Shown: piece after piece, positions 1 to 40,225 of the stretch
Layout: every line of letters starts with the position of its first letter
How positions within the stretch are numbered: the stretch's first letter is position 1
Sequence record: NC_027994.1
DNA length: 41,632 bases
Source: Escherichia phage K1H
Reading direction: 5' to 3' (one strand)
Made by a program: the position numbers and the translations under genes
The notes under the pieces: model-generated
The model's input: only the letters and a program-made list of their open reading frames with translations
Databases searched by the model: none
What the model was told of the DNA's origin: nothing

Positions 1-1251
1 ATGAGTATTCAGCTATCCGCACCGCAGGCACTGTTCCTGAATTGCGATAACAAATACAAAGCCTATGTCGGCGGCTTCGGCAGCGGAAAGACATTTGTTG
101 GCTGCCTTGACCTGCTTACGTTTATGCTCAAGCATCCAGGTACGCGCCTGGGTTACTTCGGCCCGACATACCCGGCTATCCGTGACATCTTCTACCCGAC
201 ATTTGAGGAAGCCGCTAACCTGCTCGGCCTCGATGTGCTGGTTAAATCTGGCGACAAAGAAGTCGTGGTTACTCGCGGTAAGACGGTGCTCGGTACAGTT
301 ATCTGCCGTTCTATGGATAACCCAGGCTCGATAGTCGGCTTCAAAATCGCTGCTGCGGTCGTGGATGAGCTTGATGTATTGAGCCGTGAGAAAGCTGAGC
401 TGGCGTGGAACAAAATAGTCGCCCGTATGCGTCTGGTTATCCCCGGCGTAACTAACCACATCTCTGTCACCACGACACCGGAAGGGTTCAAGTTCGTCTA
501 CGCCAAGTTCAAAGAGAACCCGACGCCGAGTTACTCGATGGTGCAGGCTTCTACACACGAGAACGCGCGATTCCTGCCGCCTGACTACATTAGCTCACTG
601 ACCGAGACTTACCCCGCGCAACTGATTAACGCGTACCTGAACGGTGAGTTCGTTAACCTGACATCCGGCAGCGTGTATTATGCGTATGACCGTCGCAAGC
701 ACCGCAGCAAAGAGACAATTCAACCGGGCGATACACTGTACATCGGGCAGGACTTCAACGTTACGAAGAACGCCAGCGCCGTGTATGTGCAACGTAAAGA
801 CGGCTGGCACGCGGTGGCAGAACTGAAAGGTCTGTTTGATACGCCGGACACCGTGCGTGTAATTACTGAGAAGTGGAAGTCGCAGGGCCACCGCATAGTC
901 GTTTACCCGGACGCCAGCGGCAAGAACCGCAAGACCAACTCGGCGTCAATCTCAGATATTGCGTTACTCCAGCAGGCCGGTTTCGATGTTCGCGCTAAAT
1001 CCGCCAACCCTCCGGTTAAAGACCGTGTTTTAGCCGTGAATACCGCACTGGAAAAAGGTAAGCTGTGGGTTAATGACCACTTATGCCCCGAGATAGCGAA
1101 GACGCTGGAGCAGCAGGCATACGATGATAACGGAGAGCCAGCTAAAGACGGCATCATTGACCATATGGCGGATGCTCTCGGCTATCCTGTAGTTTACGAG
1201 ATGCCGGTGGTTAAACCAGTAATCAACATCCCGGTGACTTTCGCACTTTAA
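1..1251 (+). CDS. terL: Terminase large subunit
   Basis: 416-aa ORF; N-terminal Walker A-like GGFGSGKT; directly downstream of small terminase and upstream of portal. Confidence 0.85.
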   Translation: MSIQLSAPQALFLNCDNKYKAYVGGFGSGKTFVGCLDLLTFMLKHPGTRLGYFGPTYPAIRDIFYPTFEEAANLLGLDVLVKSGDKEVVVTRGKTVLGTVICRSMDNPGSIVGFKIAAAVVDELDVLSREKAELAWNKIVARMRLVIPGVTNHISVTTTPEGFKFVYAKFKENPTPSYSMVQASTHENARFLPPDYISSLTETYPAQLINAYLNGEFVNLTSGSVYYAYDRRKHRSKETIQPGDTLYIGQDFNVTKNASAVYVQRKDGWHAVAELKGLFDTPDTVRVITEKWKSQGHRIVVYPDASGKNRKTNSASISDIALLQQAGFDVRAKSANPPVKDRVLAVNTALEKGKLWVNDHLCPEIAKTLEQQAYDDNGEPAKDGIIDHMADALGYPVVYEMPVVKPVINIPVTFAL

Positions 1252-1262
1252 GAGGACAACAA

Positions 1263-2756
1263 ATGGTTTCCGCAAACATTAACGCAGGGCAAGGGCAGAA
1301 CGTTAAAACCCGCCACCGCCAGTACGAAGAGTATTTCCCTAAGTGGCAGAAGGTGCGACATGCGCTTTCTGGCGACCTGACATCGTATCTACGTGACGTC
1401 AGTAAGAACGAGCCGGACCCGGTTTACGGTCGCCAGCGTCAGGCTGAATACGAAGCGGGGGCAATTTGCTACAACTTCACCAAGCGAACGCTTTCAGGCA
1501 TGGTCGGCAGCGTAATGCGCAAAGACCCCGAGATGATTATTCCGTCTCAGATGGAATACCTGACCACTAACTGTGACGGGTCGGGCGTTGGCCTGTGGCA
1601 GCACGCACAGGATACTCTGTATGAGATTGATGCTGTTGGTCGCGGTGGTTTGCTGGTTGACGCCCCCGCGGTAGAAGTAGCTACCATGGCAGAGCAAAAC
1701 GAGGGTTTACTAAACCCAACAATCGCTTTCTACACCGCAGAGAACATCATCAACTGGCGTCTCCAGCGCGTCGGGTCTGTTAATCGTGCGGTTATGGTTG
1801 TATTGCGTGAGGAATACGAGTACACCGATGGCGCGGATGAGTTCAGCCCCAACTACGGCGAGCAATACCGAGTCCTTGATATTTTCGAAGGCCAGTATCG
1901 CCAGCGTCTGTACCGCTTTAACCAGAAAGGTGCACTGACGGAAGGTGGCTATATCGAAATATTCCCGAAACTCGGTAATATTCCGGTCGGGGTGATTCCG
2001 TTCACGTTCATCGGCGCGGGAAATAACGACTCAACCCCTGACGATGCACCTTTGCTGCCGTTGGCTGAACTTAATATCGGGCACTTCCGCAACAGCGCGG
2101 ACAATGAGGAGTCCAGCTTCGTCGTAGGCCAGCCTACTCTGTTCATCGCCCCCGGTGAGAACATGAGCATGGGACAATGGAAAGAAGCCAACCCTCACGG
2201 AGTGCGTATGGGGTCACGTTCTGGCCATAACATCGGTTACGGCGGCAATGCGTTTCTGGTCCAGGCCGGTGAGAACAACCTAGCCAAGCAGAACATGTTG
2301 GATAAAGAGAACCAGGCAATCCAGATTGGTGCACAGCTTATTACCCCGACGCAGCAAATCACCGCGGAATCGGCACGCCTGCAACGCGGCGCTGATACGT
2401 CCGTTATGGCAACAATCGCACGTAACGTAAGCATGGCGTATACCGATGCGTTGCGCTGGGTCGCGGGTATGCTTGGGATTAGCGACAGCACTGAAATTGA
2501 GTTCAAACTGAACATGGAGTTCTTCCTGCAACCAATGACCGCTCAGGACCGCGCGCAGTGGATGGCGGATATTAACGCGGGCCTGTTACCGGCTACCGCT
2601 TACTATGCTGCGTTGCGTAAGGCGGGGGTAACTGACTGGACAGACGAGGACATTCAGAACGCTATCGAGGATGCGCCTCTGCCATTAGGTGCTGTTGCTC
2701 AGGTGGCTGGGGAGATTCCGCAGTCGGCGCAGCAAAAAGACCCCACCCAGCAGTAA
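1263..2756 (+). CDS. Portal protein
   Basis: 497-aa ORF immediately after terL, canonical position and size; followed by a hairpin terminator. Confidence 0.75.
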   Translation: MVSANINAGQGQNVKTRHRQYEEYFPKWQKVRHALSGDLTSYLRDVSKNEPDPVYGRQRQAEYEAGAICYNFTKRTLSGMVGSVMRKDPEMIIPSQMEYLTTNCDGSGVGLWQHAQDTLYEIDAVGRGGLLVDAPAVEVATMAEQNEGLLNPTIAFYTAENIINWRLQRVGSVNRAVMVVLREEYEYTDGADEFSPNYGEQYRVLDIFEGQYRQRLYRFNQKGALTEGGYIEIFPKLGNIPVGVIPFTFIGAGNNDSTPDDAPLLPLAELNIGHFRNSADNEESSFVVGQPTLFIAPGENMSMGQWKEANPHGVRMGSRSGHNIGYGGNAFLVQAGENNLAKQNMLDKENQAIQIGAQLITPTQQITAESARLQRGADTSVMATIARNVSMAYTDALRWVAGMLGISDSTEIEFKLNMEFFLQPMTAQDRAQWMADINAGLLPATAYYAALRKAGVTDWTDEDIQNAIEDAPLPLGAVAQVAGEIPQSAQQKDPTQQ

Positions 2757-3869: not shown

Positions 3870-4330
3870 TGATGGGCTTTTTCAAAGTAACTGATGTACC
3901 GTCACGTCGCGTAGTCCAGTACGCCCGCGTGTCTGGCTCTGGTGAGAACGTGGTGTTTATTGATGATGAAAGTGTACTCGGTACACCCGAAGACGATATG
4001 CCGTTTGCAGATAAAACCGGTATTGCGTTACCCGCGGCGGGCATGCTTTATGAAATTCCGTATCTGGCGGATGCAGGTGACGTGTATTTCTCGGTGCAAC
4101 CGAAAGACACCGAGCTGGTCGACGGTAGCGCCACCATCACCGTCGAAGTTAAGGCGGGTAAAGCGCCGTGTGTACTGACCTGGTACAAAGACGGTAAGGA
4201 AGTGGTAAACGCCCCGGAAGAGGCTTTGTCTCTAACGGTTAATGCAGTTGGCGAATACTTTGTTAAAGTTACTGATGCCGATGGTGTAGAGGCCGTAAGC
4301 AAAGCGGCGAAGGTTACTAAGCCAGAATGA
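3869..4330 (+). CDS. Hypothetical structural protein
   Basis: 153-aa ORF with ATGA-type overlap to upstream gene; followed by bidirectional terminator. Confidence 0.5.
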   Translation: MMGFFKVTDVPSRRVVQYARVSGSGENVVFIDDESVLGTPEDDMPFADKTGIALPAAGMLYEIPYLADAGDVYFSVQPKDTELVDGSATITVEVKAGKAPCVLTWYKDGKEVVNAPEEALSLTVNAVGEYFVKVTDADGVEAVSKAAKVTKPE

Positions 4331-4331
4331 T

Positions 4332-4359
4332 AAAAGGCCCCTTTCGGGGCCTTATTTTT
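4332..4359. terminator. Bidirectional intrinsic terminator
   Basis: GGCCCC-TTTC-GGGGCC with T-run on + strand and A-run (T-run on - strand) on the other side. Confidence 0.6.
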
Positions 4360-4361
4360 CA

Positions 4362-4463
4362 TCAAAGTTCACCATTCCCGCTATCTGCGTCCTCGACCCC
4401 GCTAACAGCCCACACAAACAATCCTAAATTAACCAGTAACACAAATGAAATTGCTACCATCAT
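4362..4463 (-). CDS. Small hydrophobic peptide (33 aa, MMVAISFVLLVNLGLFVWAVSGVEDADSGNGEL)
   Basis: Internal ATG of track ORF 4362..4553; GGAGG Shine-Dalgarno 4-5 nt upstream; own promoter (TTGCAG-17-TACTAT) and terminator; single predicted TM helix. Confidence 0.4.
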   Translation of the reverse strand: MMVAISFVLLVNLGLFVWAVSGVEDADSGNGEL

Positions 4464-4489
4464 AACCACCTCCACTATACGTTTACTTA

Positions 4490-4518
4490 ATAGTACCCTA
4501 TTATGTTGGTGTCTGCAA
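4490..4518 (-). promoter_or_regulatory. Sigma70-like promoter, class 1 (TTGCAG-N17-TACTAT) with embedded dyad TAATAG-N4-CTATTA
   Basis: -35 at about 4513-4518 and -10 at about 4490-4495 (minus strand); spacer nearly identical to three other class-1 promoters. Confidence 0.5.
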
Positions 4519-4559
4519 ACTATTTGTTTACGTATTCCAGTTATTCCACTCAATTGTAA

Positions 4560-4584
4560 ATGTTGGAATAAGCTATTCGAATAG
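4560..4584. repeat. Half-site cluster GAATAA / CTATTC / GAATAG plus ATGTTGGAATAA direct-repeat copy 1
   Basis: ATGTTGGAATAA (4560-4571) recurs at 5343-5354; CTATTCGAATAG is a perfect 12-bp palindrome (4573-4584) abutting a -35 hexamer. Confidence 0.6.
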
Positions 4585-4613
4585 TTGACTTTTCACCAAA
4601 AATGTGCTAAGCT
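4585..4613 (+). promoter_or_regulatory. Sigma70-like promoter (TTGACT-N17-TAAGCT with TGn extended -10)
   Basis: TTGACT 4585-4590; TG at -15/-14; weak -10 TAAGCT 4608-4613. Confidence 0.4.
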
Positions 4614-34877: not shown

Positions 34878-34905
34878 TTGACAAAATAAAATGTAGCTGT
34901 AAAAT
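34878..34905 (+). promoter_or_regulatory. Strong sigma70-like promoter (TTGACA-N16-TAAAAT)
   Basis: Consensus -35, near-consensus -10; faces a 390-nt region lacking any ATG. Confidence 0.55.
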
Positions 34906-35706: not shown

Positions 35707-35909
35707 TGCGAATCCGTATAACTGACCGCAGGCTTATCCGTATAACTGACCGCAGGCTTATCCGTATAACTGACCGCAGGCTTATAGATTTCGGTATCTC
35801 GGTAGGTGATGTTTTTCCGGCGTTCAGCATCAACCATTATGGTTTTATGATTGAGTACAAAGGGTCGTTATTGTTCGTGTATCGGGATGAATGTGAGGTT
35901 CTGGTATGA
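35706..35909 (+). CDS. Small protein with triplicated RLIRITDR peptide repeat
   Basis: 67 aa from ATG 35706 (TAATG overlap, GGAGG SD 10 nt upstream); N-terminus encoded by three perfect 24-bp tandem repeats. Confidence 0.45.
   Translation: MRIRITDRRLIRITDRRLIRITDRRLIDFGISVGDVFPAFSINHYGFMIEYKGSLLFVYRDECEVLV
35712..35785. repeat. Tandem direct repeat, 3 perfect copies of 24 bp (ATCCGTATAACTGACCGCAGGCTT)
   Basis: Read directly from sequence: copies at 35712-35735, 35736-35759, 35760-35783, followed by a 2-bp partial copy. Confidence 0.9.
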
Positions 35910-36061
35910 GAGAAGCATTTGAACGGTGGGCTGTGGTCGAGGGTCTGCCGGTTAACAAGGGTTCAAAGAAAGAGTACCTGAACGTTAAGACGCGTCTCGC
36001 GTGGCGGGCGTGGAAAGCTGGTGTGCAATCCTTGATTGAAAGAGGTGTGAGGTATGGGTGA
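35906..36061 (+). CDS. Hypothetical small protein (51 aa)
   Basis: ATGA overlap with upstream and downstream genes; below ORF-track size cutoff. Confidence 0.35.
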   Translation: MREAFERWAVVEGLPVNKGSKKEYLNVKTRLAWRAWKAGVQSLIERGVRYG

Positions 36062-36254
36062 GTGGATTAAGTGTAGTGAGATGCTGCCGGGTAATGGGTA
36101 TACGGATAAAGAGTTCCTGGTGTATGAAACGTTAAATAACGCAGTTCAGCACGATTATTACATAGTTCCTGATGACGGGAGAAAGCCTTTCTGGAATCAC
36201 TACGATAAGTACGTGACGCACTGGATGCCGTTACCCGAGCCGCCAGAAGTGTGA
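36054..36254 (+). CDS. Hypothetical protein
   Basis: 66 aa, translationally coupled. Confidence 0.5.
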   Translation: MGEWIKCSEMLPGNGYTDKEFLVYETLNNAVQHDYYIVPDDGRKPFWNHYDKYVTHWMPLPEPPEV

Positions 36255-36628: not shown

Positions 36629-36766
36629 ATGGGCTGGTACGGTAGCTGGACTTTAGGCGAACTGGTAGACGCTTACGAAATAATTAGTAGCGCTTCGGTG
36701 TGTGACGGCGACACTAAATCGCTGCTAGTCGGGGTGGATGAGAAAAGGGGTGAAGCTGATGAGTAA
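36629..36766 (+). CDS. Hypothetical small protein (45 aa)
   Basis: GAGAGGGGA SD; overlaps start of next gene. Confidence 0.35.
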   Translation: MGWYGSWTLGELVDAYEIISSASVCDGDTKSLLVGVDEKRGEADE

Positions 36767-37307
36767 CAAAAACGAAATATTCGAGTACCTGATCGACCAG
36801 CTACGGCAGCAGGTAAATAACAGCCGGAGCGAAGACCTGGCTCATGAGGTGCAGTCACTTAAGAATCAGTTACGTGATGCTTCGGTGCAGATTAAGGAGT
36901 TACATATGGCGCTGGCTACCGCCACCGGGGATGTAGAGGCTTACAAACTTGTGCGTAAGGGTGGGTACATTTCTAGGGGCCAGGGCTACGTGGTTGGCGA
37001 ACATGCGCCCGGGCCAACGGTAAATTGTCGGTGCACCCAGACGCCTGTACCGCCGGAGCAATCTGGTTGCCGTAAAGAAGATACCCAGGAATGCGAGCAC
37101 TCTTGGATTATTATGCCTGGGTTGTTTCTCAGCGAAGGCAATCCGAACAACGTTCCTGGTAGCGAGCTTTGCTCTAAATGTGGTAAACGTGAGTGGGACG
37201 ACAAGGAATATAAACCGAAAAACGATACTCAGGAATGTGATCATGATTGGGTTCTTGATGCCGACGAGGATTATTTTGTGTGCCGCAGATGTGGAGAGAC
37301 GACATGA
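36759..37307 (+). CDS. Cys-rich (zinc-ribbon-like) protein with N-terminal coiled coil
   Basis: 182 aa from ATG 36759; paired Cys motifs CRC, CSKCG, CRRCG plus ECEH/ECDH. Confidence 0.5.
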   Translation: MSNKNEIFEYLIDQLRQQVNNSRSEDLAHEVQSLKNQLRDASVQIKELHMALATATGDVEAYKLVRKGGYISRGQGYVVGEHAPGPTVNCRCTQTPVPPEQSGCRKEDTQECEHSWIIMPGLFLSEGNPNNVPGSELCSKCGKREWDDKEYKPKNDTQECDHDWVLDADEDYFVCRRCGETT

Positions 37308-37507
37308 CCAGCATCTTATTTATCTGGGTGCTAACTGCTGGCCAGATGCAACTAGCGGCATCAGAAACGTTTTATTCGATGGAGGCGTGCCAGTCAGCGG
37401 CACGCGCCGCAGAGAACGCGCACTTCCTGTTTCAGGGCGACAAGCCCAACGATTCGGAGGTACGCGCTATCTGCTCACCTAAGCGACTTGGTAAACAGGA
37501 GAAATAA
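37304..37507 (+). CDS. Small protein with N-terminal signal/TM segment
   Basis: 67 aa from ATG 37304 (ATGA overlap); MTSILFIWVLTAGQMQLAAS hydrophobic N-terminus. Confidence 0.45.
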   Translation: MTSILFIWVLTAGQMQLAASETFYSMEACQSAARAAENAHFLFQGDKPNDSEVRAICSPKRLGKQEK

Positions 37508-37800
37508 TGTCGTTAGCAACTGACATCCTGAAACGAAGCGGCCTTGCGCCGCTGTCGCCGAGAGCGAATACGCGTATACACAAGCGCCGCCGTAATGCAC
37601 TGTACCCCGAGATTCAGGCCAGACGCAAAGCGGTACGCGCCTGTGGATTCCAGAACGGGAAGGCTGTGAATCTCGGTGAGTTTAAAACACAGGAACGCGC
37701 AGCAATCGCTAATCGGCTATTTAATTACTGGAAATCGTTGGGATACGATGATATTCCGACGAAACCGCAGAGACGCCAATACATCTGGAGACATAAATAA
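37507..37800 (+). CDS. Hypothetical basic protein
   Basis: 97 aa, Arg/Lys-rich. Confidence 0.5.
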   Translation: MSLATDILKRSGLAPLSPRANTRIHKRRRNALYPEIQARRKAVRACGFQNGKAVNLGEFKTQERAAIANRLFNYWKSLGYDDIPTKPQRRQYIWRHK

Positions 37801-37831
37801 ACAACTATTAGGATAATTCCTACCCGTGGTA

Positions 37832-39400: not shown

Positions 39401-39582
39401 CTGACCGTGAATACGAAAAGATGATGGTAGAGGCTGTTAACGGCGGCGTAGACATCGGTCACGTGATGCACGCCCTGAATACTAAAATCGCAGTAGCTGA
39501 GCAGATGGTTGAGTCGCTTTACGAGACACGCCGTGAACTGATTAACCGCTTCAACCTGAACAAGGGTGATACCAATGCCTAA
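39397..39582 (+). CDS. Hypothetical protein
   Basis: 61-aa track ORF, coupled. Confidence 0.45.
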   Translation: MTDREYEKMMVEAVNGGVDIGHVMHALNTKIAVAEQMVESLYETRRELINRFNLNKGDTNA

Positions 39583-39823
39583 AATCACAATCGCATCACT
39601 CGAACGCCGTATTATGGTGCTCGAGTCAGAGAAACAGACGTTAGGCGGGCAACTGTCGATTAACGGTGAGTACCAGTTAGCCGCATTTAAGGTTCTTCTC
39701 ATGTTGTTGAGAGGAGAAGAGGAAAAGATGAACGCCTGCGAGCATGATTACCGCCTGCATTTAGTTGATGGGGTGCATCGAGTCACATGCTTAAAATGCG
39801 GTAAAGCGTATGAAGTCGCCTAA
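39566..39823 (+). CDS. Hypothetical protein with C-terminal CxxC...CxxC-like pairs
   Basis: 85-aa track ORF (GTG 39566 or ATG 39575). Confidence 0.45.
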   Translation: MIPMPKITIASLERRIMVLESEKQTLGGQLSINGEYQLAAFKVLLMLLRGEEEKMNACEHDYRLHLVDGVHRVTCLKCGKAYEVA

Positions 39824-39994: not shown

Positions 39995-40225
39995 ATGTTT
40001 CACGAACTGAAGATATTACCTGATCATTTTGAGCCTGTTATGGCTGGAATCAAGCTGGCGGAACTTCGATTAAACGACCGCGACTTTAAGGAATATGACA
40101 CTCTGTGCCTGCGAGAATACGAAAACGGTGGGTACACAGGCCGTATCGTTTACCGCCGCATCATTCATGTTGCGGACGTAGGGGCTTACCTGCCTGGATA
40201 CGTGCTATTAAGTATGGAGGGTTGA
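39995..40225 (+). CDS. ASCH/DUF3850-like small protein (tentative)
   Basis: 76 aa; MFHELKILPDHFEPVMAGIKLAELRLNDRDF... resembles DUF3850 N-terminus from memory. Confidence 0.4.
   Translation: MFHELKILPDHFEPVMAGIKLAELRLNDRDFKEYDTLCLREYENGGYTGRIVYRRIIHVADVGAYLPGYVLLSMEG

What the first reader, a model, noticed from the sequence alone, without database searches (positions are those of the whole stretch)
36759..37507. Cys-rich zinc-ribbon-like protein coupled to a small secreted/membrane protein in the early-right block
The 182-aa protein has an N-terminal coiled coil and at least four Cys/His pairs (CRC, ECEH, CSKCG, ECDH, CRRCG) suggesting a multi-zinc-finger nucleic-acid or protein-binding factor. 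It is ATGA-coupled to a 67-aa protein with a hydrophobic N-terminus. Neither matches a motif I can name, so they are candidates for host-takeover or anti-defence functions.
Basis: inference. Interest (0 to 1): 0.35.

Follow-up and report, generated by a model that had tools for sequence, protein, structure and literature searches.

The report
Hypervariable zinc-ribbon cassette protein of Kagunavirus
The two genes are real, and the larger one is an uncharacterised phage protein with a constant coiled-coil stalk and swappable zinc-ribbon modules that differ between near-identical phages, which suggests a host-directed or counter-defence role; the small neighbour is a conserved soluble protein, not a secreted one.

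Summary
The window is a Kagunavirus (Guernseyvirinae) siphophage genome. Both ORFs exist as described: 36759..37307 (182 aa) and 37304..37507 (67 aa), with an ATGA overlap.

The 182-aa protein (phrog_6094, function unknown) has these parts:
- a conserved heptad coiled coil
- an optional spacer
- a near-invariant EQSGCRKED junction
- two C-x-H-x-W…C-x-x-C-G zinc ribbons

The family is confined to this phage group but very diverse: 1318 clusters at 90% identity, against 49 for the 67-aa neighbour. Members carry 0-5 ribbon cassettes of several types, or an unrelated beta module. Phages K1G and K1ind3 are 98-99% identical to the window in the flanks and differ only inside this ORF. Every block tested shows purifying selection, so the diversity comes from in-frame cassette shuffling. 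The protein is acidic (pI 5.0), which argues against nucleic-acid binding.

The 67-aa protein models as a soluble beta-beta-alpha-beta fold. The "secreted/membrane" label is not supported. ATGA overlaps are the norm in this operon, so the overlap does not show that the two proteins work together.

My best reading is an accessory dimeric scaffold that displays interchangeable protein-binding cassettes for host takeover or counter-defence. This function is inferred, not shown.

The parts
36759..37307 (+). Gene for the 182-aa modular zinc-ribbon protein (phrog_6094; cassette architecture 'long ribbon + short ribbon')
36759..36959 (+). Constant N-terminal helical / coiled-coil region, aa 1-67. Invariant in the 90-sequence alignment: E9, Q14, R16, E30, V31, S33, L34, L38, L48. 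Heptad a/d positions V31-L52.
   Evidence: AF2 helices 4-21, 27-56, 59-67; alignment A1; local similarity to the T7 gp5.9 coiled coil; pooled pN/pS 0.27-0.33
36960..37055 (+). Optional spacer cassette, aa 68-99 (GGYxxxGxxYVVGEHxPGxxVNCRCTxTPVPP). Holds H81, C89 and C91. Present in some relatives and absent in others. AF2 models it as disordered.
37056..37091 (+). Junction motif EQSGCRKEDTQE, aa 100-111. C104 is invariant. Conserved at the protein level despite synonymous changes. It precedes every kind of C-terminal cassette.
   Evidence: (pN/pS 0.12)
37092..37181 (+). Zinc ribbon 1, long type: C112-E-H114-S-W...C138-S-K-C141(-G)
   Evidence: AF2 strands 116-119 and 135-138
37182..37235 (+). 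Inter-cassette linker, aa 142-159. It ends in KNDTQE, a copy of the KEDTQE that precedes ribbon 1 (internal repeat).
   Evidence: sequence; DxQx precedes 205 of 317 ribbons in the family
37236..37292 (+). Zinc ribbon 2, short type: C160-D-H162-D-W...C175-R-R-C178(-G)
   Evidence: AF2 strands 164-166 and 173-175, pLDDT about 75
37293..37296 (+). GGAG Shine-Dalgarno for the 67-aa gene, embedded in the last codons of the zinc-ribbon gene
   Evidence: sequence
37304..37507 (+). Gene for the conserved 67-aa protein (phrog_3766). Predicted soluble beta-beta-alpha-beta fold. C29, H40 and C57 are nearly invariant.
36629..36766 (+). Upstream 45-aa ORF that overlaps the zinc-ribbon gene start by 8 nt. 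It is itself replaced in phage K1G.
34878..34905 (+). Best sigma-70-like promoter (11 of 12 matches) at the head of the rightward block that contains both genes. No plus-strand terminator-like site lies between it and the genes.
   Evidence: consensus match only

Best explanation
The 182-aa protein is a non-essential cytoplasmic accessory protein of Guernseyvirinae phages, transcribed with the small rightward genes from a host-type promoter. Its constant half (the coiled coil of aa 1-67 plus the EQSGCRKED junction) most likely forms a parallel dimeric stalk. Its variable half is an array of autonomous mini-domains on flexible linkers: here one long and one short C-x-H-x-W...C-x-x-C-G zinc ribbon, and in relatives 0-5 ribbons of other types or a roughly 55-aa beta module.

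The cassettes are exchanged in frame between phages of E. coli and Salmonella, probably by recombination at the shared junction and at the DTQEC-type linkers. Each cassette is then kept by purifying selection. I read the cassettes as protein-binding heads that capture variable host proteins, either defence or takeover targets, with the dimeric stalk giving avidity or carrying the constant activity.

The 67-aa protein is a separate, conserved, soluble small alpha/beta protein. It is co-translated with the zinc-ribbon protein, as most neighbours in this operon are, and is not a secreted partner.

Shown: the anatomy, the family restriction, the hypervariability, cassette replacement in near-identical backgrounds, purifying selection and acidity. 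Inferred: dimerisation, zinc binding, protein binding, the recombination route, early timing and the host-directed role.
For: Identity and context:
- The window is about 97% identical to Escherichia phage G AB-2017, a Kagunavirus.

Diversity:
- The family has 1318 clusters at 90% identity, against 49 for the adjacent 67-aa gene.
- In the same 49 IMG/VR loci the zinc-ribbon protein forms 33 clusters among 36 genes, with median pairwise identity 0.41.
- The comparison genes form far fewer clusters: the 67-aa gene 8 among 49 genes (0.85), the 97-aa gene 9 among 46 genes (0.78), and the holins and endolysin 3-4 among 37-48 genes.
- Cassette architectures are combinatorial: A, BA, BAA, AA, BAC, BBD, EBBD, ABAA and others.

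Localised replacement:
- K1ind3 and K1G match the window at 98-99% up to nt 36901 and 36631 respectively. K1G is again 98.1% identical from nt 37301. K1ind3 realigns from nt 37054 (90.8% over the rest of the region compared) and reached 98% in the megablast. The break lies inside the zinc-ribbon ORF in K1ind3; in K1G it starts at the upstream 45-aa ORF.

Selection:
- The junction keeps its amino acids while its codons vary, with pN/pS 0.12.
- Other blocks also show purifying selection: N-terminal blocks 0.27-0.33, long ribbon 0.30, short ribbons 0.46.

Motif regularity:
- G follows CxxC in 310 of 317 ribbons, and W sits two residues after the His in 282 of 317.

Other support:
- Acidic: pI 4.98, with net charge -10 for aa 100-182.
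- Accessory: 39 of 49 loci carry a family member directly upstream of the 67-aa gene, and 10 do not.
- Confined to this phage group: 84 representatives at 50% identity among 1.84 billion proteins, and the junction DNA pattern occurs only in these contigs.
- The junction plus a ribbon is fused to a different small gene in locus L014, so the cassette is portable.
- The coiled coil resembles the dimeric T7 gp5.9 coiled coil: hmmsearch E 0.028, hhalign probability 85%, 41% identity over 29 columns.
Against: - There is no functional or interaction data of any kind, and no homology to any characterised anti-defence or takeover protein.
- The AF2 model is weak (mean pLDDT 57, pTM 0.24). Dimerisation and zinc sites are inferred from motifs, not from coordinates.
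- Family pI ranges from 4.6 to 9.0, so a single charge-based mechanism is unlikely.
- The whole block is mosaic. DUF551, for example, forms 13 clusters among 23 genes, so part of the variability is a regional property.
- The pN/pS blocks were picked by motif patterns, which biases them towards conservation.
- Many relatives come from automated assemblies of sequencing runs.
Confidence: 0.4

Rival explanations
1. It is a nucleic-acid-binding regulator of transcription or translation, for example of the lysis/late genes that start about 570 nt downstream. The zinc ribbons would contact DNA or RNA and the coiled coil would dimerise the protein.
For: Zinc ribbons and dimeric coiled coils are common in phage regulators (established knowledge: Ogr/Delta, Mu Com, lambda Q). 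The gene lies two genes upstream of the holins. The top non-significant fold matches are zinc ribbons of RNA polymerase subunits.
Against: - The protein is acidic, pI 4.98, and the ribbon half has net charge -10.
- It is absent from 10 of 49 related loci that keep the same lysis cassette.
- Ribbon number and type change between phages that are 98-99% identical elsewhere, which is hard to reconcile with a fixed operator or RNA target.
- No Pfam hit to Ogr_Delta, zf-dskA_traR or any DNA-binding family at E<=1.
- The very basic 97-aa protein next door (pI 11.3) is a better nucleic-acid-binding candidate.
Confidence: 0.12
2. It is a gp5.9-like inhibitor of host DNA-end or DNA-handling machines (RecBCD, MukBEF). 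The coiled-coil dimer would be the inhibitory DNA mimic and the ribbons would be accessory.
For: The best PDB sequence hit of the family profile is T7 gp5.9, with E 0.028 for aa 25-53 against gp5.9 residues 21-49, and SLKNQL is identical. hhalign gives probability 85%. gp5.9 is a parallel coiled-coil dimer that blocks RecBCD (PMC9836394). The whole protein is acidic. A phage with linear DNA plausibly needs such a function (established knowledge).
Against: - The RecB-contacting acidic residues of gp5.9 (E36, D38/E39, E45) align to D40, S42, V43 and H49, so only one is kept.
- The aligned segment has about 5 acidic and 3 basic residues, against about 10 and 3 in gp5.9 (counted from the alignment). 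The N-terminal domain has pI 6.05.
- The match is short, sits in a coiled coil and is statistically marginal.
- RecBCD is conserved, so this reading does not explain the hypervariable cassettes.
Confidence: 0.12
3. The 182-aa and 67-aa proteins form an obligate two-component complex. The constant coiled coil would dock the conserved 67-aa protein and the cassettes would provide targeting.
For: The gene order is conserved. In 39 of 49 loci a family member lies directly upstream of the 67-aa gene, 33 of them with the ATGA overlap, whichever cassette ends the protein. Each cassette's 3' end carries the ribosome-binding site of the 67-aa gene.
Against: - The 67-aa gene occurs without the zinc-ribbon gene in 10 of 49 loci, and in 473 phage records against 227 for the zinc-ribbon gene.
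- Overlaps of 1, 4 or 8 nt are the rule for this operon.
- ATGA is inherent in the Met-Thr start of the 67-aa gene.
- No complex prediction could be run here.
Confidence: 0.15
4. The variability is largely neutral. The 3' half of the ORF would be a recombination sink where small, stable mini-domains accumulate and shuffle without any host-directed specificity.
For: The whole block is mosaic, with gene insertions and deletions. The same ribbon type occurs in another gene of this genome (39575..39823). Similar ribbons occur as tandem repeats in giant bacterial proteins that start with a signal-peptide-like sequence. The beta module occurs in other PHROG families.
Against: - Ligand residues and the C-x-H-x-W / C-x-x-C-G signature are kept in nearly all cassettes.
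- pN/pS within cassette types is 0.30-0.46.
- The reading frame and the overlap with the next gene are preserved in all 39 loci.
Confidence: 0.12

Closest known systems
PHROG phrog_6094 (unknown function); neighbour gene phrog_3766
   Same: Full-length HMM matches: E 8e-63 for the 182-aa protein and E 1e-35 for the 67-aa protein. The closest annotated protein is AQN31797.1 (G_40) of phage G AB-2017, labelled 'hypothetical protein' and 98.9% identical.
   Different: The PHROG carries no function. Its 142-position profile hides the modular, variable-copy nature of the family: residues 1-181 of the query map to profile positions 1-137.
T7 gp5.9, a parallel coiled-coil dimer that mimics DNA and inhibits RecBCD (and MukBEF)
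   Same: A small, acidic protein of an enterobacterial phage. There is local similarity over 29 residues of the coiled coil in the same heptad register.
   Different: gp5.9 is 52 aa with no zinc ribbons. Its acidic RecB-contact residues are mostly not conserved here. The aligned segment here is near neutral. The statistics are marginal.
DksA/TraR family (coiled coil plus C4 zinc finger, binds the RNA polymerase secondary channel); Gre factors
   Same: Overall architecture: helices followed by a zinc module. A nearly invariant acidic C-E-D-L-A-H-E-V motif sits at the turn between helix 1 and helix 2 in the monomer model.
   Different: No Pfam or NCBIfam match at E<=1. The ligand pattern is CxH...CxxC, not CxxC-x17-CxxC. 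Ribbon number varies. The hairpin may be an artefact of modelling a dimeric coiled coil as a monomer.
Small zinc-ribbon anti-defence proteins (Enki, 52 aa, active against AbiH and a retron) and the Lar zinc-ribbon restriction-alleviation family
   Same: Small phage-encoded zinc-ribbon proteins that neutralise host defences (for Enki; Lar from established knowledge).
   Different: No sequence relationship was found. No NCBIfam model, which should include the Lar family model, matched at E<=1. Those proteins are single ribbons without a coiled-coil stalk or cassette arrays.
Polymorphic 'constant N-terminus plus variable C-terminus' proteins of phages, such as tail-fibre tips and T4 internal proteins
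   Same: A constant N-terminal part joined to interchangeable C-terminal modules, with replacement in otherwise near-identical genomes.
   Different: These comparisons rest on established knowledge, not on tests here. The protein is not in the structural gene block. Its modules are 20-55-aa mini-domains, not receptor-binding domains. Nothing suggests it is packaged.
Ogr/Delta zinc-finger late activators (P4 Delta is a tandem duplication of the Ogr fold)
   Same: A phage zinc-binding protein with duplicated zinc modules.
   Different: No PF04606 match at E<=1. The protein is acidic, variable and dispensable.

Membership tests
phrog_6094 | Significant full-length match to the family HMM | tested here: met
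   E 8e-63, 211.5 bits, residues 1-181 against profile positions 1-137 of 142
Zinc ribbon (generic fold) | Two ligand pairs on two short beta-hairpin 'knuckles' | tested here: met
   C112-x-H114 / C138-x-x-C141 and C160-x-H162 / C175-x-x-C178. AF2 places strands 116-119/135-138 and 164-166/173-175 next to the ligands. The signature is kept in 317 ribbons of relatives. Model confidence is low to moderate.
Zinc ribbon (generic fold) | Bound zinc ion | not testable with these tools
   Needs metal analysis.
Zinc ribbon (generic fold) | Significant structural match to solved zinc ribbons | tested here: inconclusive
   The Foldseek top hits are zinc-ribbon proteins (RNA polymerase I A12.2, the NUDIX N-terminal ribbon, ribosomal proteins), but all have E >= 2.
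T7 gp5.9 RecBCD inhibitor | Sequence homology to gp5.9 | tested here: inconclusive
   hmmsearch E 0.028 over 29 residues. hhalign probability 85%, 41% identity. The region is a coiled coil, so convergence is possible.
T7 gp5.9 RecBCD inhibitor | Strongly acidic DNA-mimic surface with the RecB-contact residues E36, D38/E39 and E45 | tested here: not met
   These residues align to D40, S42, V43 and H49. The N-terminal domain has pI 6.05, against pI 4.0 for gp5.9.
DksA/TraR | C4 zinc finger CxxC-x17-CxxC, match to PF01258 | tested here: not met
   No such hit at E<=1 in Pfam or NCBIfam. The ligand pattern differs.
Ogr/Delta late activators | Match to PF04606 | tested here: not met
   No hit at E<=1.
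Known anti-phage defence or anti-defence families (PADLOC-DB; Lar family in NCBIfam) | HMM match | tested here: not met
   No PADLOC family matched at E<=1, and the NCBIfam scan returned no relevant family. No dedicated anti-defence library was available.
Sec signal peptide or transmembrane helix (67-aa protein) | Positively charged n-region followed by a hydrophobic core, or a hydrophobic span of about 19 residues or more | tested here: not met
   There is no K or R before the hydrophobic stretch (MTSILFIWVL...). The mean Kyte-Doolittle value over 19 residues is 1.37, below the usual cut-off of about 1.6. AF2 models residues 3-23 as a beta hairpin packed on helix 26-45, pLDDT about 80. No dedicated signal-peptide predictor was available.
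phrog_3766 (67-aa protein) | Full-length HMM match | tested here: met
   E 1.1e-35, residues 1-66 against profile positions 1-66 of 66

The most novel reading that the evidence does not exclude
The gene encodes a combinatorial display protein. A constant dimeric coiled-coil stalk carries swappable zinc-ribbon and beta cassettes, and each cassette neutralises a different host defence or takeover target. Cassettes would be traded between E. coli and Salmonella phages through the conserved EQSGCRKED / DTQEC linkers. On this reading, the cassette content of a Guernseyvirinae phage would predict which host defences it can overcome.
Probability: 0.3. Interest if true: 0.7.

Novelty: new variant of a known kind. 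Interest (0 to 1): 0.45.

Why it matters
Guernseyvirinae (K1-specific coliphages and Jersey-like Salmonella phages) are widely isolated for therapy and biocontrol, yet their small rightward genes have no assigned function.

This locus is the most diversified gene in its neighbourhood, and its diversity comes from in-frame shuffling of 20-55-aa mini-domains on a constant stalk. If the cassettes are specificity modules against host proteins, three things follow:
- The locus becomes a compact, readable marker of counter-defence or host-takeover repertoire.
- It offers a natural library of small zinc-ribbon binders.
- It is a tractable system for studying how phages evolve new specificities by domain exchange rather than point mutation.

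If it turns out to be neutral mosaicism, it is still a clear case of a cassette-accreting ORF and a warning against reading ATGA overlaps as evidence of functional coupling.

Tried and rejected
Family and homology searches:
- Pfam, NCBIfam and PADLOC scans of both proteins and of neighbours gave no family above its cut-off. The only hits were sub-threshold coiled-coil look-alikes: HisK-N-like at 21.6 bits (cut-off 27.8), syntaxin, TPR, Phage_scaffold and DivIC for longer relatives. I treat these, and record labels such as 'cell division protein', 'tolA-binding protein' and 'lactocepin', as coiled-coil or annotation artefacts.
- PDB sequence searches with the single proteins and with profiles gave only the marginal gp5.9 hit.
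- Literature searches on Kagunavirus or Guernseyvirinae plus zinc, and on Jerseyvirus early genes, found no description of this gene.

Structure:
- Fold search of the 182-aa model against PDB gave nothing significant. The model is too weak (pLDDT 57) to rely on.
- Fold search of the 67-aa model gave nothing in PDB (best E 0.38). In BFVD it matched only uncharacterised small phage proteins.

Ideas tested and dropped:
- The junction as a DNA- or RNA-level element, such as a recombination site or regulatory signal. Rejected as the main constraint, because third-codon positions vary while the amino acids are kept. It may still serve as microhomology for recombination.
- The junction and cassettes occurring in other phage groups. 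The DNA pattern scan of IMG/VR hit only the same Guernseyvirinae contigs. The exhaustive profile search found 84 representatives. The eleven short ones read in full were all family fragments. The outliers noted were three giant proteins with ribbon repeats, and not all 84 were inspected.
- An AP2-like DNA-binding domain in the 97-aa neighbour, which I recalled from memory. Pfam at E<=1 and PDB do not support it.

Methods note:
- The first dN/dS attempts used fixed-length windows that were not aligned across indels, and two runs crashed. Those outputs were discarded, apart from the three ungapped motif blocks that one search printed before it stopped. The ribbon and 67-aa values come from the corrected run.
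Full report
**What the window is.** The region 36400-38000 matches 306 phage records. The best is Escherichia phage G AB-2017 (Kagunavirus, Guernseyvirinae), at 96.9% identity over 97% of the query. Annotated relatives show the same layout: replication genes on the minus strand, a divergent control region, then a rightward block of small genes that runs into two holins and an endolysin. The best sigma-70-like promoter of the region (11 of 12 matches) is at 34878-34905. No plus-strand terminator-like site lies between it and the lysis genes. 'Early-right block' is therefore plausible, but it rests on consensus matches only.

**Checking the observation.**
- ORF 36759..37307 (182 aa) and ORF 37304..37507 (67 aa) exist and overlap as ATGA.
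- Both starts have Shine-Dalgarno sequences at good spacing (AGGGG at 36746-36750, GGAG at 37293-37296).
- Most relatives begin with MSNKNE-like residues, so 36759 is the start rather than 36738.
They resolve into two complete C-x-H...C-x-x-C units (aa 112-141 and 160-178) plus C89, C91 and C104.
- A six-frame scan of the whole window finds this motif only three times. Two are here and one is in another coiled-coil plus ribbon gene at 39575..39823.
- The two units are an internal repeat: KEDTQECEHSW against KNDTQECDHDW.

**Anatomy of the 182-aa protein.** AF2 with a 90-sequence alignment gives a weak overall model (pLDDT 57). Within it:
- Helices 4-21, 27-56 and 59-67 have pLDDT about 70-76.
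- Residues 68-111 are disordered.
- Two small beta units flank the ligand pairs, the second with pLDDT about 75.
- V31, L34, L38, A41, I45, L48 and L52 form a clean heptad pattern.
- The protein is acidic: pI 4.98, and aa 100-182 have pI 4.46 and net charge -10.

**Family.**
- The protein belongs to phrog_6094 (E 8e-63, function unknown).
- Pfam, NCBIfam and PADLOC give nothing above threshold.
- A search of 5.8 billion proteins finds 1318 clusters at 90% identity, with lengths of 133-291 aa among the 120 listed.
- An exhaustive profile search of 1.84 billion representatives at 50% identity finds only 84. The eleven short representatives I read in full were all fragments of the same phage family.
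- The family is therefore confined to Guernseyvirinae-like phages but very diverse within them.

**Modularity.** Relatives share three things: the N-terminal helices (invariant E9, Q14, R16, E30, V31, S33, L34, L38, L48), the nearly invariant junction E-Q-S-G-C-R-K-E-D, and then a variable array.
- I found 0-5 ribbons per protein.
- There are at least five recurrent types by single-linkage clustering.
- Architectures include A, BA (this window), BAA, AA, BAC, BBD, EBBD and ABAA.
- Some members instead carry a beta module of about 55 aa (W..W.GG.CPVP...RDG...W...DI..YR). This module also occurs in other PHROGs of unknown function.
- The coiled-coil region can also carry insertions.
- The ribbon signature is tight. 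G follows CxxC in 310 of 317 ribbons, W sits two residues after the His in 282 of 317, and a DxQx linker precedes 205 of 317.

**Diversity relative to the neighbours.** In 49 IMG/VR loci fetched with the conserved 67-aa protein, the same genomes give the following:

| Gene | Clusters at 90% / genes | Median pairwise identity |
|---|---|---|
| Zinc-ribbon protein | 33 / 36 | 0.41 |
| 67-aa protein | 8 / 49 | 0.85 |
| 97-aa protein | 9 / 46 | 0.78 |
| Holins, endolysin | 3-4 / 37-48 | 0.81-0.93 |

Database-wide the contrast is 1318 clusters against 49. In GenBank phages it is 227 records, mostly below 60% identity, against 473 records, mostly above 90%.

**Cassette replacement in near-identical backgrounds.**
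- Phage K1ind3 is 98.1% identical to the window up to nt 36901, then unalignable until nt 37054.
- K1G is 99.3% identical up to nt 36631 and 98.1% identical again from nt 37301. Between these points only small patches align, including the junction at 37056-37100.
- The hypervariable stretch is thus the zinc-ribbon ORF, plus the small upstream ORF in K1G.
- In locus L014 a junction plus ribbon is fused to the C-terminus of a different small gene downstream of the 67-aa gene, so the cassette is portable.

**Selection.**
- Codons of the junction vary at third positions (TCT/TCC/TCA, CGT/CGA/CGG/CGC, AAA/AAG, GAA/GAG, GAT/GAC) while the amino acids are kept.
- Pooled pN/pS is 0.12 for the junction, 0.27-0.33 for two N-terminal blocks, 0.30 for the long ribbon and 0.46 for short ribbons.
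- The blocks were chosen by motif patterns, which biases them towards conservation, so these are rough values.
- They indicate purifying selection on each part. The diversity therefore comes mainly from shuffling, and the junction is constrained as protein.

**The 67-aa protein.**
- It belongs to phrog_3766 and is highly conserved.
- AF2 (pLDDT 73) gives strand 3-11, strand 14-23, helix 26-45 and strand 52-58. The hydrophobic N-terminus is a beta hairpin in the model.
- There is no K or R before the hydrophobic stretch, and the mean hydropathy over 19 residues is 1.37.
- Foldseek finds nothing in PDB (best E 0.38). In BFVD it finds many uncharacterised phage proteins of 50-90 aa with the same fold.
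- I therefore reject 'secreted/membrane' with moderate confidence.
- C29, H40 and C57 are nearly invariant. Their role is unknown.

**Is the pair functionally coupled?** In 39 of 49 loci a family member lies directly upstream of the 67-aa gene. In 33 of these the overlap is ATGA; of the other six, several overlap by 1 nt. Three points weaken the inference:
- ATGA is inherent in the Met-Thr start of the 67-aa gene.
- Overlaps of 1, 4 or 8 nt are the rule in this operon: 35494/35497, 35906/35909, 36054/36061, 36759/36766 and 37507.
- The 67-aa gene stands alone in 10 of 49 loci.

The overlap shows co-translation, not partnership.

**Leads to known proteins.**
- The family profile's best PDB hit is T7 gp5.9, the coiled-coil dimeric DNA mimic that inhibits RecBCD. 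The E-value is 0.028 for aa 25-53 against gp5.9 residues 21-49, and SLKNQL is identical. hhalign gives probability 85%.
- According to the gp5.9 structure paper (PMC9836394), residues E36, D38/E39 and E45 contact RecB. Here they align to D40, S42, V43 and H49, and the N-terminal domain has pI 6.05.
- I take this as support for a parallel dimeric coiled coil, not for gp5.9-type DNA mimicry.
- DksA/TraR and Ogr/Delta share the general 'helices plus zinc module' idea but fail their sequence tests.

**Conclusion.** The zinc-ribbon reading holds. The 'secreted/membrane' and 'nucleic-acid-binding' readings do not.

My preferred mechanism (confidence 0.4) is an accessory, dimeric, cytoplasmic scaffold that displays interchangeable protein-binding mini-domains against variable host targets. 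The rivals are a regulator, a gp5.9-like inhibitor, an obligate complex with the 67-aa protein, and neutral mosaicism. Each is rated about 0.12-0.15.

Function is inferred throughout. Zinc content, oligomeric state, binding partners and deletion or cassette-swap phenotypes are the decisive tests.

Noticed in passing
window 39575..39823 (+): A second small gene with the same design: a coiled-coil-like N-terminus plus one C-terminal ribbon, C-E-H-D-Y...C-L-K-C-G. It belongs to phrog_9023 (function unknown, E 1.5e-46). Its ribbon resembles the CEHDYRL... cassette found in zinc-ribbon proteins of other loci (12 of 22 identical).
   Followed up: partly
window 35712..35785 (+): A perfect 24-bp tandem repeat of 3.1 copies (ATCCGTATAACTGACCGCAGGCTT). 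It gives an in-frame RITDRRLI x3 inside a small ORF (ATG at 35707, stop at 35909; the counterpart in relatives is annotated FeoA-like). The unit occurs once per contig in the 8 of 73 fetched loci that contain it, some of which come from the same contig. This is therefore a window-specific triplication or an assembly artefact.
   Followed up: partly
window 37507..37800 (+): A 97-aa, very basic protein (pI 11.3, net charge +16) lies immediately upstream of the holin genes. It matches phrog_9632 and phrog_4947 (function unknown). There are no Pfam or PDB hits. It is a better nucleic-acid-binding candidate than the zinc-ribbon protein. A weak sigma-70-like site at 37788-37817 follows it.
   Followed up: partly
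locus L014 about 1100..1390 (IMGVR_UViG_3300018471_000014): Downstream of the 67-aa gene, a small 'MVQRY...KLEAELQKYKDQFPDYVECANCGS'-type gene is fused in frame to GQSGCRKEDAKE plus a CEHVW...CLVCG ribbon. The junction plus ribbon cassette has moved onto a different scaffold.
   Followed up: partly
proteins P0244 (4195 aa), P0247 (2612 aa), P0253 (4071 aa): Three giant proteins carry 3-5 tandem copies of an EE-CEHEWVTDPET...C-S-K-C-G ribbon very like the phage short ribbon, in a repeat of roughly 30-38 aa near the N-terminus (E 3e-6 to 1e-3). Two of them start with a signal-peptide-like sequence. Their origin and function were not examined.
   Followed up: no
GenBank KY295895.1 (locus L002) and other records: Annotation problems in relatives. 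The 67-aa gene is not annotated in phage G AB-2017. The 45-aa upstream ORF is labelled 'lactocepin'. Some records call the zinc-ribbon gene or the 67-aa gene 'cell division protein' or 'tolA-binding protein', probably from coiled-coil similarity.
   Followed up: no
loci L001 3600..3958, L002 3611..3793 and 4146..4586, L003 4183..4580: Between the 67-aa and 97-aa genes, relatives carry one or two extra small MVQRY... genes, and G AB-2017 also has a 146-aa gene (other records label one in this region as a protease or HslV-family peptidase). These are absent from the window. This is an insertion/deletion hotspot directly downstream of the finding.
   Followed up: no
window 36054..36254 and 39995..40225 (+): Two further genes in the block. 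The first is a DUF551-type small protein, itself variable (13 clusters at 90% among 23 loci). The second is a 76-aa protein that matches phrog_986, annotated 'RNA-binding protein'.
   Followed up: no
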